Part shown: in pieces, positions 1-7,520 of the stretch
Layout of the letters: the number at the start of each line of letters is the position of its first letter
How positions within the stretch are numbered: position 1 is the first letter of the stretch
Assembly: GCF_009914755.1 (NCBI RefSeq)
Contig: NC_060931.1
Length of the DNA stretch: 64,000 bases
From: the human T2T-CHM13v2.0 reference genome, Homo sapiens
Strand: one strand, 5' to 3'
Notes under the pieces: generated by a model
Seen by the model: the letters and a program-made list of their open reading frames with translations, nothing else
Told to the model about the DNA's origin: nothing
The model's database searches: none
Program-made: the position numbers and the translations under genes

Positions 1-1271
1 CCCATAAGCATAGGGTTATGCAAAAATGGACAAAGCAAACCAAAGCGAAAATGGACAAATGAGATCACATCAAGTTAAAAACCTTCTGTACCACACAGGA
101 AGCAATCAACAAAGTGAAGATACAACCAAAAGAATGGGAGAAAATATTTGCAAACTACCCATCTGACAAGGGATTAATAAGCAGAATATAAGGAGTTCAA
201 CTCAATAGAAAAAAAGAATCTAGTATTCCAATTTAAAAAATAGGCAAAATATATTAATACACATTCCTCAAAAGAAAACATGCAAGTGGAAAACGTATAT
301 GAAAAAGAGAAGGTGCTCAACATCATTGATATCACAGAAATGAAAATCAAAACTACAACAAGATATTTTCTCACCCCAGTTAAAATGGCTTTTATCTCAA
401 AGACAGGCAATAACAAATGCTGGCAAGGATAAGAAGAAAAAGAAACCCTTGGAAACTGTTGCTGGAAATGTAAATTAGTACAACCACTATGGAGAATGGT
501 ATGGAGATTCCTAAAAAAACTAAAAATAGAACTACATGTGATCCAGCAATCTCACTGCTAGGTATATAACCAAAAGAAAAAAATCAATATTTTGAAGAGA
601 TATCTGCACTCCCATATTTATTGCAGCACTATACACAACAGCCAAGATTTGGGAGCAACCTAAGTATCTACCAAAAAACAAATGGATAAAGAAAATTTGG
701 TACATATACACAATGGAGTATTATTCAGCCATTTAAAAAGGGATATCCTATTATTTGCAATGTGGATGGAACTGGAGGACATTATATTAAGTGAAATAAG
801 CCAGGCACAGAAAGATAAATTTCACATGTTCTCACTCATTTGTGGAAGCTAAAAATAGATCTAATTTCCAGTCAACAAATACTTAACTCTGTAGTCATTC
901 TCTAGAAAGTTCTATCATAAATAGAGCTCATAGAGCTAAAGAGTAGATGATGGTTACCAGAGGTTAGAAAGAGTGGTAGTGAGGCAGTGGGGATAGTTAA
1001 TGGGCACAAAAAGATAGTACCCATTTATATTTTACACGAGTAAAATATAGTATTTGATAGCACAACAGGGTGACTACAGTCTAATAATTTATTGTACATT
1101 TAAAAATAACTAAAAGAGTATAATTGGAACGTTTGTAACACAAAGAAATGTTGAATACTTGAGGTGGATACCCCCATTTACCCTGATGTGATCATTATAC
1201 ATCATGTGCCTGTAATAAAACATTTAATGTACCTCATAAATATATACACCTACCATACAAATAAAAAAAAA
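1..1271 (+). mobile_element. L1 (L1MA-type) ORF2 3' end and 3' UTR, continuing left of the window
   Basis: Degenerate ORF2 C-terminal sequence and L1MA-like 3' UTR (tacccccatttaccctgatgtgatcattatac...aaatatatacacctac); A-rich tail at about 1258-1271. Confidence 0.9.
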
Positions 1272-3439
1272 TTAAAGAACGATTTTAACTTCTATTTGAA
1301 TTCATCTAGAATGGGTAGTGATTAGTTATAAGGACACCCTCAATATAACCAGTTTTTAAAATGTTATAACAATGTCAACTTTAACACTGTACATCTTGTC
1401 TTTAAATCTTAAGGACCTATTTTTCAATCAACAAATACTTAACACTGCAGGCATTCTCTAGAAAGCTCTATCACAAAATAGATCCCTGCAGAGCTCTTGA
1501 AATAGGCCCTGTTAAGACCAGTAGTATTAGAAAAGAAGTCTATAGAACATTCCAGCGATTCATTGCTCTTTGTTTTTGAAGTTCTAGCCTTAAACTAAGC
1601 CCAACCTTCAAAAAACCACATGATTTGTCCCCAGGAACTCTAAGTCTCCATTGAAACAATTTACTTTCATTGTGTTGAGGCCTCAGCTGCTGTGAAGTTT
1701 GTCTGTAAAGAATAATTATGTGAAAAATGTGTCAACATCCTCTCTAAAAGAAAATAGATCATGTTGCTTATACTGTTCATTATGGTTTTACAGTCCCAGA
1801 GGCCTGAATTATCAACCAGATTCACGTAAGAGTCTTCCTCAGCCTCAAACTTAATGATTCACAAAGAATTCAAAACAATGGTGCCAGTAGCATGAATGTC
1901 AAGAAGACCTCAAACATCAGATGCAGTTTTCAGAATACCCTTTTCTGAACTGGGTTCATTTGCTTTCAATTATATCATCTAATCAGGTGCCAGTCAAGTT
2001 AACACAGGGAAACCACTGAGTTTGGGATCTTGTAAAATTATGTATTTCATTAATAACATAGTCCTGTTCTGGCTATATAACTAAATCCCACTATTCATCA
2101 CAGCTGCAGCATATAAATCCATAAATTTCAGATTCCTTTATAATAATCAAAGTAGACAAACTAGGTATACGTTTGTAAAAGCTTTTCTGTAAGTCCTTCC
2201 TTTTTATCTTTTAGCCTGTGTATTCCATCAGTCAATGTTTGCAAAGATTCAGATGTATGTCCCCTCAGGTATTCCGGAGGTGAAAGGAAACTCATTACAG
2301 ACCCACTATTAAATCTTTCCTTCCCATTTCCTATATTAGGATCCCTGGAATAAACAAACTCTAAGAATCGGCAGTAGAAAAATTTTCTCTCTCTTAAAAA
2401 TCTGATGGGCTTATTTTAACTGACAATGAGAATTACATAACTCAATGCATTTCCCTCTTTAGATTCTACAATATCATGCATAAAATGAGTATATAGTCTT
2501 TAAACTGTTTATATTCAATGTTTTATTTGTACCTGTATGTATTTTCCTTTGGAAATTGACCTTTTATTTCAAGCAATCTCAAATCATTTGGGGGATAAAT
2601 ATAAAGAGCTAAAATTTGTATGTTTATCTAGAAAAAAATTACAATAAGCTTTCTTTTTCCTTCATAAAAGATATTGTATCTATAGGCATCATTGACAAAA
2701 AGACTTCTGATGGCAATATTATTTGTTTTCCACCTCTGCTTCTTCATCCTTTTACACTTCCTTATCACAACTAGAATTTATACACATCGTGGTTAAAGGT
2801 CACGTAACTTAGTTCCTATTTTTGGAGATATTTTTCTACCACATTTCCCAAGCTAAAGCTCTCTGAGCTAACTGTAATGAACCCTGCACTGCAAACCCAG
2901 GGACCTTAATCAGCTGTTGCCTATTCACTCCTTCTGAAGTTCCAAAGTTCCTGAACAGTGAAAGGCTTAAGGGAACAGAAATTCTAATCCATGAAACTTG
3001 AATAGCTCTCATGGGCTGACAGCATCATCATCATGCTGAGAGAAGGAATGAAGAGTGAAGGCTACCAGTGGTTGCACAAGAGAGGGAAAAGGAATAGTGA
3101 GAATAGGTGTTGTATTTTATGATTAGGTAAAGCAATTAAAGGGAAACAGACTATCAAAAAGAAAAAAAGACCAAGATTGACTCCAAGCATATAGTGAAAT
3201 TTTTCTCTTTTACTTAGGTATGTCAAGTACCTAAGTAAATTATAAATTTACTTAGAATTATAAAATATTGAGATTAAAGGGACTTTAAAAATCGTTTTAT
3301 CCAACCTCTTCATTCAAACAAATTTAAGATCAAGTTGGAAAGAGAAAGACTGAATATAGTGGCAAAGCAAATCTTCTTTTCCTTTTCTCTCCAAATTTCT
3401 TATTTTTCTTTTGAATTTATTTATGGCTTTTCTTTGCTG

Positions 3440-4520
3440 CATCCCATTTTGGAGGTCAAATTTATCAGTCTTTTCCTTAATAACTTCAAGAATATTAGTT
3501 AGGAGAGGGTTTTTTTTCATTTCAGTTTATAGAAGAATTCACTTATTTTTAGTTCATGTAGAGTTTTTTGTGTTTTCATTTTAAAAACTCAGGTCTCTAA
3601 TTAATTAGAAGAGTTATTCTTGTTAACTCCTCTAATTAATTTGAATTAAGAGCCCACTTTCATCTTTTTTCAATGTTTCTCTAGTAAACTAACACCACTT
3701 GTTGAAAAGTTTATGTTTTCCCCAATTATTTAAAACGCAGAAACTGTTATATACATTTGGGTCTATTTTTGGATTTTTGATTGTGCCATTGGGCTGTCAG
3801 TCCATTCATGTGCCAATCTATATTGATTTAATTTAGAAGCTATACAGTATGTTATCATATGTATTAGGGCTACCTTTCTCATTTCCTATTGCCCCTTTTT
3901 ATTGTATTTTTTTTCTTCATAGCCATTTGAGCTTCATAGTTTTTGTATAGACTTTATAATAAATTTATCTGTTTTTTAAAACTTGGTTTTTTTTTTTGAG
4001 TTCTTATGTAGAATTGATATCTTTGTGATGCTTATTTATTCTAAGAATATAGAATACCTTTCCATTTGTCCAAATATAATGTCATATGTTTCGTGAGTGT
4101 TTTAATGTTTTCCTTGTACCTTGTGTGCGTTTAACTTTACACTTTCTTTTATTATTTTCTGGTTGTTCTATTCATTCGGAGCATCCAAATTTTCATTCTA
4201 ACCTTCCGTCTTTATTCTCCTCTTTGTTTTAGTTTTAGATGTTACAATTCAATATATGCAGCAATAATTGCCAGCAGTCCTTGTACTGAAATTATCTCTT
4301 AATTGGATGAATACTTTTCTCTATCAAATTTCTTAAGAAGAACTTGTGAGTAAAATATGAACTGACTTCTTACATGGTTAAAATCAGTTTTCAGTAGTTG
4401 TGAAAATTGAAGGACAGTATATAAAACCCTTGGTTCACACATTGTTTCTTGGAAATGTTATTCTACTTTTATCTAACATTATATGCTGACAATTTCCAAC
4501 CTGAGTTTTAAAATTTCTTA
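3440..4520 (-). mobile_element. Highly degraded old L1 fragments (L1M/L1ME-like)
   Basis: T-rich stretches resembling antisense L1 ORF2 (tacatttgggtctatttttggattttt; ccatttgtccaaat); boundaries approximate. Confidence 0.5.
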
Positions 4521-5140
4521 TTTGTAGTTGTCTTTCATATCTGCAATTATTTGTTTAATTATGCTCAATTCATGTTTCAGTATTGTGTTACAATTTCCCT
4601 TTGATTTGTGACTTTTTCTCAGGACAAGGCAATTGTCATTATTTTACAGAACTCTTCCATTTTCTTTTCCTTTCTTTTTTTAGAAGAGTGAACAAGTAAA
4701 TAGTGCTCACCATCTCCTCTAGAGCAGGATAAGAGATGTTTCAGTATCAAAGTAAAATGTGCCACAGTTTCCCATTATTACTGAATGGTAGCACTTTGCC
4801 TCTCTTACGACTTGATTTTCTCTTCCTGGGACTCAGATGTCTCTTTGCTATCAAGTAAACCTTCTGGCTACTTGTCCATTACCTATTTTCAGTTATGTTT
4901 TCTAATGCTGTCTTCAGTATCAGAAATGATGAGAAATTGAGCATTTTTCCCTTGGAGAATATAAGTTGGCCCTATCTTGCTAGCTGAGTCCTACATATCC
5001 AAAATCAATAACCTCAGTTTCTTCCCACATTCCCTAAGATTTAAAGAATAATTAGAATGCTGTAAATCAGTGTGGTACCAGATGCACCCCAGCAAATGAT
5101 AGCTCTTGGAATAGCATCTGAAATGATAATGTGTACTCAC

Positions 5141-5378
5141 TTGGAATTCAGAAATGAAAATGTCCCAGTGCCTTGCTTTATTACTGAAGGGAATCAGTCT
5201 TACACCACAGCAATTGCCTGTTCCCACCAGCTGACAATGAAATGAATACGCTGTAGGAGCTGAGATGATTGTGGCATTAAACTTAGCAGCCTCTCCATGA
5301 TCCTGCAAGACTGCTACTGAATCTAAACTAAATCAGTTCTGAGAAGAGTCTGTATAGAACTTGTTCATCATTTGAAAT
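5141..5378 (-). pseudogene. Pseudoexon of a V-ATPase accessory subunit S1 (Ac45/ATP6AP1 family) paralogue, LAMP-like luminal domain, with a premature stop
   Basis: Minus strand reads tttactcattttccccctccag|A TTT CAA...TTC CAA|gtgagt; 238 bp, phase-2 start and phase-0 end. Translation FQMMNKFYTDSSQN*FSLDSVAVLQDHGEAAKFNATIISAPTAYSFHCQLVGTGNCCGVRLIPFSNKARHWDIFISEFQ matches the recalled Ac45 family pattern WF-FNA-P-YSFHC-W-DFQ. TGA at 5333-5335 occupies the conserved Trp position. Confidence 0.85.
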
Positions 5379-5904
5379 CTGGAGGGGGAAAATGAGTAAA
5401 ATCAAATGAGTTAGAAAAGACATTATCAACTAAGAGACAGCTCAGGGATGTTTTAGATCAGGCTGAGAAAATAGGACAGAAACAGCCAAACAGCCTGAGG
5501 AGAGTTGACATCATCTGCGAAAATCTAAGAGATTGTTTTATTACTGTCATCAGTTGTGATTATGATAATAATAGTGATCTGGTGTGCAGTGAACACAAAA
5601 CAATGCAGTAGCAACAGGACTGGCTATATATAAAAAAAGGAATAATATAGATTTTCTGACTGGTAAGCTTGGCATCTAAGTTACCCAGACTATAACCAGA
5701 GCAGGGACATCGAGGAAATTGAGTAAATGCCTGAGATAGGGCAAGCATCTGCATATATTATGACATTGGTCTTACTTAGTCCTTTAATCTTTCACTTAGA
5801 AGGGTAATGAATGAGGGAAAGATCAGTCCTAGGGACATTATGAGTGGAGGGAGCAAAGCAAAGGTGACAAGTATATTAATATCTATGGGTAAAGCTTTCT
5901 GAAT

Positions 5905-6012
5905 ATGACATCTCATTTAAGGTTCACAACAATGCAATCAGTTAGATACTATGATTTCCATTCTATACATGAAGTAATTGAAGTTTTGAGGAGTTAAGAA
6001 AATTATCCTAGT
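5905..6012 (-). mobile_element. MIR fragment
   Basis: tctcatttaaggttcacaacaa...ttccattctatacatgaagtaattgaagt resembles the antisense MIR core. Confidence 0.5.
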
Positions 6013-6319
6013 GCCAGCTGGCCTGTAAGGAAAGCAAGTGGCCAGTAAAGAGAGCAGGGGCTGAAAGCCCAGTGAGTCAGAGCCACAATATTCCAGATTG
6101 AGGGCCTTGCACCAAAGCTGGACAAGGAGATGAAATGGAAGTTGCCTGAGATGTGATCTCCATACAAACCTTTCTCATCTACATGACCCTGCTGTGAGTC
6201 ACTTCTTTAATGTTAAGGAAATTGGACAACACATGAGATCGGGCATCACAAGTAAATGCATAAGGGGAAGAACTAGTTACAGTTCTCCAACTCCTATAAG
6301 AGCATACTCATACTCCTAT

Positions 6320-6645
6320 AAGTCATGCATCACTTACATATGGATATATGTTCTGAGAAATGCTTTTCATCAGATTACTTTGTTGTGCAAACATCATAGA
6401 GTGTACTTACACAAACCAAGATTGTATAGCCTACTACACACTTAGGCTGTATAACATAGCATATTGCTCCTGGGCTACAAACCTGTAAAACATGTTACTG
6501 TACTAAATACATATGTTACTTGTGTATCTAAACATATCTAAACATATAAAAGATACAGTAAAAATACAGCATTACAATCTAATGGGACCACTGTCATACA
6601 TATGATCTGTCATTGACCAAAATGTCATTATGTGATGCACAACTG
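6320..6645 (+). mobile_element. Tigger3a/MER7-type non-autonomous DNA transposon
   Basis: Ends agtcatgcatcactta...ttatgtgatgcacaactg with flanking TA; internal catcatagagtgtacttacacaaacc and gctacaaacctgta. Confidence 0.85.
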
Positions 6646-6916
6646 TACTTTTATACTTATGCTCCTATCTTTAAATAAGTAGCCCCAGAAAGATATAAGA
6701 GATTTTTTGATTGGATGGACATAAAATTCAACTTGTTAATGCCAGGTTTAGCTCTGGTAACTAAAATATCAAACTACTTGGGAAGTATGAAGAAACTTCT
6801 TGGGGTCACAATGCATTCTTATGTCTGTGATATTCAGCCTCTGTAAATATTGATGCAATTGTAAATCATGCCAAACTCCATTTCCTAACAAGTATTAATT
6901 ATAAGAGAATTATGCA

Positions 6917-6985
6917 AGAGTTTGAGTCCAGCCTGGGCAACATAGTGAGACCCTGTCCTCAAAATAAAAAAAATAATAAAAATAA
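6917..6985 (+). mobile_element. 5'-truncated FLAM/AluJ-type monomer
   Basis: gagtttgagtccagcctgggcaacatagtgagaccctgtc plus A tail; degenerate TSD agagaattatg/agaggattatg. Confidence 0.75.
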
Positions 6986-7209
6986 AGTGAGAGGATTATG
7001 TCTGAAATGGCCCTGAATTGTCAGTTTACCTTTTTACTTCTGACTAGTGTATATTTGTAAAGAATTCCTTACAATTAGTTATGTTTTGTGAAAGCACAAA
7101 ACCACAGTGACATTTAAGCCAGGACCATTATTCTGTGTTTTTAATAAATGTACAAATTAAGGAAAAAAGAACAAAAGAAATTAAATATTTTAAATGTGTT
7201 ATTATCTGC

Positions 7210-7520
7210 AGTGATTTTTCTGTATGTTTGATTTAACAATTACTGAAAAATATGACTAAATGTCGCATTTTCTTTTGTATTTGTCTACAAAGAATAAATC
7301 TTTTGCTGATCTATCAATTCTTGATATATTTTGAAATGTTATTTTTAATACACTTAAGCTTAAAATACAGTGAAGTAGTACTTTAAAAAGTTACATTGTG
7401 ACCATTTTTGTCTTTAATGATCCTTTATTCCCTGTAAGTTTTCTTTGTCTGATGCTAATGTAAGTATACCAACTTTCATTTGCATAGAAACATCCTTTTC
7501 CATCCTTTGGCTTTTAAGTT
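7210..7520 (-). mobile_element. Degraded old L1 fragment
   Basis: Antisense L1-like text (tctttgtctgatgctaatgtaagtataccaactttcatttgcatag...catccttttccatccttt). Confidence 0.45.

What the first reader, a model, noticed from the sequence alone, without database searches (positions are those of the whole stretch)
5141..5378. Fossil exon of an Ac45/ATP6AP1-family V-ATPase accessory subunit paralogue (candidate unitary pseudogene, possibly Ac45LP)
Seen in sequence: a strong polypyrimidine acceptor (ttttccccctccag) and a consensus donor (CAA|gtgagt) bracket 238 bp with no frameshift and a single stop. The ORF track shows only the part after the stop. Established knowledge (recalled, not searched): the penultimate ATP6AP1 exon encodes [53 protein letters not shown]...WQMMLQDFQ with the same phase-2/phase-0 boundaries. 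This exon aligns end to end (F..N..Y..S.. [W->*]F; FNA...P..YSFHC..V; W....EFQ). It is too divergent to be ATP6AP1 or ATP6AP1L itself, and intact splice sites at homologous positions argue against a processed retrocopy. Inference: it is a remnant of a third family member. An Ac45-like paralogue (Ac45LP) has been described in non-placental tetrapods and reported absent from placental mammals. The good preservation suggests a later or more patchy loss than that, or residual constraint.
Basis: partly seen in the sequence, partly recalled or inferred. Interest (0 to 1): 0.92.

Follow-up and report, generated by a model that had tools for sequence, protein, structure and literature searches.

The report
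Dead exon of lost Ac45LP gene
This is a leftover exon of a proton-pump helper gene (Ac45LP) that birds, frogs and platypus still use but placental mammals have lost; the leftover is real, but it was already reported in 2009.

Summary
On the minus strand, 5378..5141 is a 238-base exon-like block: one base plus 79 codons, one TGA, no frameshift. A strong acceptor and a gtgagt donor flank it. It matches the luminal domain of V-ATPase subunit S1/Ac45 (Pfam PF05827, E 6.5e-14). In a tree it falls with bird-type Ac45LP proteins, apart from human ATP6AP1 and ATP6AP1L. It lies between IQUB and an SLC13-family gene, which is the Ac45LP position.

It is not new. Jansen et al. [quoted passage not shown]

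- The whole exon and both splice sites survive, not only the part after the stop.
- The TGA is absent from 4 of 4 related non-human ORFs.
- A probable, badly decayed exon 10 relic lies 24.4 kb downstream, outside the window.
- No trace of exons 1-8 was found in 194 kb.

Exon 9 is better kept than exon 10. That is a weak hint of constraint, not proof.

The parts
5379..5392 (-). Polypyrimidine tract plus AG acceptor of the exon 9 relic
   Evidence: Read directly. The AG lies one base before the F codon, as in ATP6AP1 and ATP6AP1L.
5141..5378 (-). Relic of exon 9 (penultimate coding exon) of Ac45LP: 1 base plus 79 codons encoding the second half of the VAS1 luminal domain
   Evidence: Pfam PF05827 E 6.5e-14. 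PDB ATP6AP1 chains E 2e-9. It is the best human match of the Ac45LP-type proteins P0004 and P0010 (E 1e-23 and 9e-20, 60% and 51% identity). Tree placement.
5333..5335 (-). TGA at codon 15, in place of the family's conserved W codon; the only break in the exon frame
   Evidence: All 4 of 4 closest non-human ORFs (P0001, P0073, P0074, P0075) have W here.
5135..5140 (-). Consensus donor gtgagt
   Evidence: Read directly. Its position is homologous to the donors of ATP6AP1 and ATP6AP1L.
5087..5134 (-). First ~50 bases of former intron 9. Read through in the exon frame, they resemble the read-through tails of ORFs from other species.
   Evidence: The tails of P0008, P0003, P0011 and P0014 after the exon end resemble the human read-through, by eye. 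No DNA from other species was available, so the conservation was not tested.
1..5134 (-). The in-window part of former intron 9. The intron runs on beyond the window's low end to the probable exon 10 relic. That relic lies OUTSIDE the window at window places -19407..-19216 (chr7:124,600,593-124,600,784; L010 593-784, minus strand). Its pyrimidine-rich AG acceptor is at places -19215..-19201. The form accepts no places under 1, so the relic is entered here.
   Evidence: Exon 10 relic: hmmsearch pieces at E 0.19 and 2.7 with consecutive profile positions. The acceptor and terminal TAA were read directly. A frameshift-tolerant alignment spans 67 of 69 columns with 2-4 frameshifts plus deletions. 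Semi-global score is 40.2 against 28.4 for the next best in 168 kb; Gumbel P is 0.0015 per 10-kb strand and 0.025 for all 168 kb. The local version was not significant (P about 0.26). The relic keeps 12 of 24 invariant residues. No family match was found in window 1-5134 itself.

Best explanation
The block is the relic of exon 9 of Ac45LP. Ac45LP is the third vertebrate member of the Ac45/ATP6AP1 family of V-ATPase accessory subunits. It is intact in birds, reptiles, frogs and platypus and lost in placental mammals, so in human it is a unitary pseudogene. The human locus cannot make the protein. Exons 1-8 are not detectable, exon 10 is a frameshifted ruin 24.4 kb downstream, and exon 9 carries a TGA. 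Most likely the exon does nothing now and is decaying neutrally. It is still readable because the human lineage changes slowly and because this exon started out conserved. Shown here: family membership, clade, synteny, homologous splice sites, and the state of the other exons. Inferred: that it is not used and not under selection.
For: Family: PF05827 at 52.8 bits, E 6.5e-14; PDB ATP6AP1 chains at E 2e-9. Clade: the relic and 3 non-human ORFs form a clade at 100/99, nested with 14 Ac45LP-type rows at 99/97; human ATP6AP1 (97/99) and ATP6AP1L (98/93) lie elsewhere. Reverse search: P0004 and P0010 hit this exon at 60% and 51% identity, against 31-35% for the ATP6AP1 and ATP6AP1L exons. Naming: P0010 is 76-96% identical to named bird 'V-type proton ATPase subunit S1(-like)' proteins, and birds are reported to have only Ac45LP. 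Synteny: IQUB at +149 kb (hub), an SLC13-family exon at -184 kb, and the published order. One bird model of this protein is even labelled as an IQUB isoform (P0088). Prior report: Jansen et al. found only a partial exon 9 between IQUB and SLC13A1 in human and mouse. Gene death: no exon 1-8 match in 194 kb (all other hits E>2), and exon 10 is broken. Neutrality is compatible with the counts. The lineage to the ancestor of the relic clade changed 10 of 61 clear columns, against 4 on the intact P0003/P0004 lineage (p 0.18). Human keeps 14 of 19 invariant residues, which corresponds to about 0.13 changes per base. From recall, that is near the neutral distance of the human lineage since the placental ancestor. 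With about 30 substitutions and 4.4% of single-base changes giving a stop, at most one stop is expected more often than not.
Against: Exon 9 has no indel at all. At about 30 substitutions and one indel per 8-10 substitutions (a recalled ratio), the chance of none is 0.02-0.05. Exon 10 is at least as conserved among intact proteins (pairwise identity 0.69 against 0.64), yet it has decayed more. Relic identity is 0.36-0.38 against 0.53, invariant residues kept are 12/24 against 21/27 (Fisher p 0.046), and it has 2-4 frameshifts plus deletions. In 6 of 6 pairs of the primate-like ORFs the exon differs less than the read-through flank (8-12% against 12-27%). The p values are 0.03-0.5 and the pairs are not independent. 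The frame was still fully open in the ancestor shared with these ORFs, because the human TGA and the P0074 frameshift are lineage-specific. The exon was noticed because it is well kept, so these contrasts are partly selected for.
Confidence: 0.72

Rival explanations
1. It is the same Ac45LP exon 9 relic, but it survives because the exon and the first ~50 bases of intron 9 carry a non-coding function that outlived the gene. Examples would be an enhancer embedded in the exon or another cis element, so that selection has slowed its decay (an 'exonic remnant').
For: There are no indels in 238 bases, while the exon 10 relic has 2-4 frameshifts plus deletions. Invariant residues kept are 21/27 against 12/24 (p 0.046). 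The exon diverges less than its flank in 6 of 6 primate-like pairs. Read-through tails of ORFs from distant species resemble the human intron start. The paper reports the same lone exon in mouse, a fast-evolving lineage (Fig. 2b not seen).
Against: Each test is marginal and made after the exon had been picked for its preservation. The substitution level fits slow neutral decay. RefSeq lists no functional element in the window (hub table). There is no Rfam match and no unusual RNA fold at the exon-intron junction (z -1.46; 17 of 200 shuffles fold as well). No DNA of other species could be read here.
Confidence: 0.2
2. The exon is still spliced into some unannotated transcript, coding or not, using its intact acceptor and donor.
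For: Both splice sites are close to consensus. The frame is open in several related ORFs.
Against: No gene is annotated in the window (hub table). The human frame has a TGA and no ATG before it apart from codons 3-4. No upstream exon of the family was found in 194 kb. The non-human ORFs are read-through ORF calls running into the intron, not spliced models. Expression could not be tested with these tools.
Confidence: 0.05
3. It is a duplicated fragment or a retrocopy of ATP6AP1 or ATP6AP1L rather than a third family member.
For: It belongs to the same Pfam family and has the same exon boundaries.
Against: Identity to the ATP6AP1 and ATP6AP1L exons is only about 31-35%, against 51-63% to Ac45LP-type proteins. 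The tree separates them with support. Splice sites and a 24.4-kb intron rule out a processed copy.
Confidence: 0.01

Closest known systems
Ac45LP (Ac45-like protein) of Xenopus, chicken, zebra finch, anole and platypus; Jansen et al., Cell Mol Life Sci 67:629 (PMC2812417)
   Same: Same clade in the tree. Same place between IQUB and SLC13A1 (hub). Same exon 9 boundaries. The paper itself reports this human and mouse exon 9 remnant.
   Different: The human copy is dead. It has a TGA in exon 9, a frameshifted exon 10, and no detectable exons 1-8. The paper speaks of a 'partial' exon 9 after a stop. Here the whole exon with both splice sites is seen, plus a probable exon 10 relic that the paper's text (passages and sections 15, 16) does not mention.
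Human ATP6AP1 (Ac45, chrX)
   Same: Same Pfam domain and homologous exon with the same phase and boundaries.
   Different: About 31% identity to Ac45LP-type proteins in this exon, a separate clade, and an intact 10-exon gene.
Human ATP6AP1L (Ac45RP, chr5)
   Same: Same domain and homologous exon boundaries.
   Different: A separate group in the tree (98/93) and 31-35% identity. It is described as neuron-restricted in mouse (passages of PMC8541823).
Exonic remnants of lost genes kept as conserved non-coding elements, and enhancers inside exons (recalled from the literature; not searched or read here)
   Same: A lone exon outlives its gene and is better kept than its neighbours.
   Different: No conservation track, chromatin mark or reporter test supports a regulatory role here. 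The hint rests on marginal statistics.

Membership tests
Ac45/ATP6AP1 family (V-ATPase subunit S1) | Significant match to the luminal domain VAS1_LD (PF05827) | tested here: met
   52.8 bits against a cut-off of 26.9, E 6.5e-14, profile positions 64-136 of 140. Genome-wide E 3.8e-11.
Ac45/ATP6AP1 family (V-ATPase subunit S1) | Two conserved cysteines (paper, section 15) | tested here: inconclusive
   The exon 9 cysteine is kept, inside a 10-residue motif identical to intact Ac45LP rows. A cysteine aligns at the exon 10 position, but only in a frameshift-tolerant alignment.
Ac45/ATP6AP1 family (V-ATPase subunit S1) | Highly homologous transmembrane domain (PF20520) in the last exon | tested here: not met
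   The probable exon 10 relic is broken by 2-4 frameshifts and deletions and keeps 12 of 24 invariant residues. No intact helix can be read. This is as expected for a pseudogene.
Ac45LP subgroup | Groups with Ac45LP and not with Ac45 or Ac45RP in a tree | tested here: met
   Nested with 14 Ac45LP-type rows at 99/97; ATP6AP1 and ATP6AP1L lie in other supported groups. The rows themselves are unnamed. The label rests on P0010 being 76-96% identical to named bird proteins and on the paper's statement that birds have only Ac45LP. The tree uses only 81 columns.
Ac45LP subgroup | Locus between IQUB and SLC13A1 | tested here: met
   IQUB at +148,955 (hub table). An SLC13-family exon at chr7:124,435,866-124,436,033; the name SLC13A1 for it is recalled, not given by a tool. 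Published order.
Ac45LP subgroup | No proline-rich region; distinct C-tail (paper, section 15) | tested here: inconclusive
   The exon that would hold the proline-rich region is gone. The exon 10 relic scores 42-66 against 8 Ac45LP-type tails, 46 against ATP6AP1 and 35 against a shorter ATP6AP1L piece. This leans towards Ac45LP but does not decide it.
Functional protein-coding gene | Complete open reading frame across all exons | tested here: not met
   TGA in exon 9, broken exon 10, and no exons 1-8 in 194 kb.
Processed retrocopy | No introns and no splice sites at parental exon borders | tested here: not met
   Acceptor and donor lie at the parental borders. The next exon's relic is 24,356 bases away.

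The most novel reading that the evidence does not exclude
Exon 9 of the dead Ac45LP gene, together with the first ~50 bases of its downstream intron, has been held by selection for a non-coding role for some 100 million years after the gene died. Such a role could be an enhancer or other cis element serving a neighbouring gene. This would explain why this one exon, and no other, is still nearly intact in human, in several primate-like sequences and, by the 2009 report, in mouse.
Probability: 0.2. Interest if true: 0.5.

Novelty: already known. Interest (0 to 1): 0.22.

Why it matters
The relic is physical proof that the ancestors of placental mammals had a third Ac45-type V-ATPase accessory subunit and lost it. 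That point was made in print in 2009, so the finding itself adds little. The extra details found here would help to date the loss. These are the complete exon with working-looking splice sites, a stop codon absent from 4 of 4 related non-human ORFs (no ape sequence was available), a decayed exon 10 at 24 kb, and nothing left of exons 1-8. They also raise a modest, testable question: is the lone exon kept by something other than chance?

Tried and rejected
**Exons 1-8.** An hmmsearch with a full-length Ac45LP-type profile over six-frame pieces of 194 kb (window places -40,000 to 154,000) found only exon 9 and one exon 10 piece. The other 5 hits had E 2.5-17 and looked like noise on inspection. 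Whole-genome reverse searches did not pick up the exon 10 relic either.

**Exon 10 statistics.** The local frameshift-tolerant score was top of 168 kb but not significant (P about 0.26). Only the semi-global version was.

**RNA.** Rfam on 3500-7500 gave only snoU13 at 19.8 bits, below its 46-bit threshold. The fold of the exon-intron junction is not unusual.

**Other weak PF05827 hits.** The hits on chr5 and chr6 (L006-L008) scored at most 9 bits with my profile and were dropped as noise.

**SLC13A1.** The Pfam PF00939 scan did not list a hit near the window because only 90 of 650 candidates were scored. A paralogue exon used as a query found it.

**Relative-rate test.** The relic lineage against an intact lineage gave 10 against 4 changes, p 0.18, not significant.

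**Not done.** No structure was predicted and no complex job was sent; neither would bear on the question.

Full report
**1. The observation**

The feature lies on the minus strand. A polypyrimidine tract and AG occupy 5392..5379. The exon-like block runs 5378..5141. A gtgagt donor follows at 5140..5135. After the first base, 79 codons are read with one TGA (codon 15, 5335..5333) and no frameshift. The other two frames have 5 and 6 stops.

**2. Family**

- With X at the stop, the 79 residues match Pfam VAS1_LD (PF05827) at 52.8 bits (cut-off 26.9), E 6.5e-14, over profile positions 64-136 of 140. The 64 residues after the stop alone give E 1.1e-9.
- phmmer against PDB sequences finds 6 distinct sequences, all ATP6AP1/subunit S1 chains, at E 2.1e-9 to 3.8e-5. 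The TGA aligns with a conserved W.
- A six-frame scan of the whole assembly with PF05827 gives 8 matches at E<=10. Three are strong matches for this half of the domain: chrX (73.9 bits), chr5 (68.8 bits) and this one (54.2 bits, E 3.8e-11).
- The chrX and chr5 exons (ATP6AP1 and ATP6AP1L by place; names recalled) have the acceptor one base before the F codon and the donor right after the FQ codon, exactly as here. Exon lengths are 232, 241 and 238 bases.

**3. Which member**

- A search of 1.84 billion representative proteins gave 72 hits at E<=0.001.
- The nearest (89% identity) and three more from the second library (89%, 84%, 84%) are short read-through ORFs from small contigs. They run from the exon into the intron.
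- Next come intact proteins at 47-63% identity. These continue into a transmembrane and C-tail exon.
- The reverse search supports the pairing. Two such proteins, P0004 and P0010, find this exon as their best human match for that region (E 1.1e-23 at 60% and E 9.2e-20 at 51%), against 31-35% for the chrX and chr5 exons.
- I built an IQ-TREE tree of 73 rows over 81 columns. These were the 70 of 74 stored proteins whose match covered at least 68 profile positions, plus the three human exons. P0075 was fetched later and is not in it.
  - The human exon and 3 relic-like ORFs form a clade (100/99), nested in an 18-row set with 14 intact-type rows (99/97).
  - The human ATP6AP1 exon (97/99) and the ATP6AP1L exon (98/93) sit elsewhere.
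  - With so few columns, deeper forks are not resolved.
- The rows are unnamed, but P0010 is 76-96% identical to named bird 'V-type proton ATPase subunit S1(-like)' proteins. All named rows among the 120 listed of 652 hits are from birds.
- By Jansen et al., birds lack Ac45 and have only Ac45LP. The intact-type set is therefore Ac45LP.

**4. Place**

The hub table puts IQUB at +148,955. An SLC13-family exon lies at chr7:124,435,866-124,436,033, that is 184 kb on the other side; that this is SLC13A1 is recalled. The paper gives the order ASB15, IQUB, Ac45LP, SLC13A1, FEZF1 in Xenopus and chicken. One bird model of this protein is even labelled as an IQUB isoform (P0088), as expected of adjacent genes.

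**5. Already in print**

PMC2812417 is Jansen et al., Cell Mol Life Sci 67:629. I read its abstract, passages, and sections 15 and 16 in full.

- The legend of its Fig. 2b mentions the stop codon preceding the open part.
- Full-text searches for 'Ac45LP' (3 papers hold it, 2 listed) and 'Ac45-like' (4 hold it, 3 listed) turned up no later treatment of the human relic.
- The 2021 paper on Ac45RP is known to me only through passages of PMC8541823 and is not in the library.

- *(a) The whole exon survives.* This includes the 14 codons before the stop and both splice sites.
- *(b) The stop is absent from the related ORFs.* The TGA is missing from 4 of 4 related non-human ORFs, which have W. One of them, P0074, has its own frameshift near the 5' end. 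The lesions are therefore lineage-specific, and the frame was open in their common ancestor.
- *(c) A probable exon 10 relic exists.* It lies on the same strand 24,356 bases downstream, outside the window (chr7:124,600,593-124,600,784; window places -19407..-19216).
  - It begins right after a pyrimidine-rich AG acceptor and ends at a TAA.
  - It aligns to 67 of 69 profile columns, with 2-4 frameshifts and 6-8 deleted residues.
  - Evidence for it: two adjacent hmmsearch pieces with consecutive profile positions (E 0.19 and 2.7). The semi-global score is 40.2 against 28.4 for the next best of 168 kb, with P 0.0015 per 10-kb strand and 0.025 overall (150 shuffles).
  - Evidence against it: the local score was not significant (P about 0.26), and the genome-wide reverse searches missed it.
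- *(d) No trace of exons 1-8.* None was found in 194 kb.

**7. Neutral or constrained?**

Points for constraint:
- Exon 9 has no indel, while exon 10 has several.
- Identity of the relic to 8 intact proteins is 0.53 for exon 9 (intact pairs 0.64) but 0.36-0.38 for exon 10 (intact pairs 0.69).
- Invariant residues kept are 21/27 against 12/24 (p 0.046).
- The exon differs less than its read-through flank in 6 of 6 non-independent pairs (p 0.03-0.5).

Points for neutrality:
- Human keeps 14 of 19 invariant residues, and the ancestor of the relic clade kept 16 of 19.
- The relic lineage changed 10 of 61 clear columns against 4 on an intact lineage (p 0.18).
- This level, about 0.13 changes per base, is near what I recall for the neutral human branch since the placental ancestor.
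- With about 30 substitutions, one stop is unsurprising, and no indel has a chance of 0.02-0.05.
- The exon was chosen for being well kept, so the contrasts are inflated.
- No Rfam family and no unusual fold were found.

I put about 0.7 on a neutral, unused relic and about 0.2 on some non-coding constraint.

**8. Verdict**

The interest lies only in the details added here and in the open question of why this one exon outlasted the rest.

Noticed in passing
window places -19407..-19201 (chr7:124,600,593-124,600,799; L010 593-799), minus strand: Probable relic of Ac45LP exon 10 with its acceptor and a terminal TAA, 24.4 kb downstream of exon 9. It is broken by 2-4 frameshifts. The text of the 2009 paper that I read does not mention it.
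   Followed up: yes
window 5087-5134, minus strand: The start of the former intron 9, read through in frame, resembles the read-through tails of ORFs from distant species (P0008, P0003, P0011, P0014). This suggests a conserved element next to the donor. It was judged by eye on protein strings only, because no DNA of other species was at hand.
   Followed up: partly
window 4709-4809, plus strand: Weak snoU13-like match (19.8 bits, gathering score 46, E 0.55). It is most likely chance or a decayed copy.
   Followed up: no
L006 (chr5:145,302,079-145,302,312, minus), L007 and L008 (chr6): Weak PF05827 matches elsewhere in the genome (26, 20.8 and 19.6 bits, with 1-5 stops inside). With my Ac45LP profile they scored at most 9 bits, so they look like noise.
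   Followed up: partly
P0088: A bird protein 87% identical to the Ac45LP-type query over its full length is labelled by its source as an isoform of the IQ motif and ubiquitin-like domain protein (IQUB). This is probably a naming slip caused by the two genes being neighbours.
   Followed up: no
[quoted passage not shown]: [quoted passage not shown] The window with the relic is on human chromosome 7, so the two numbers appear to be swapped.
   Followed up: no
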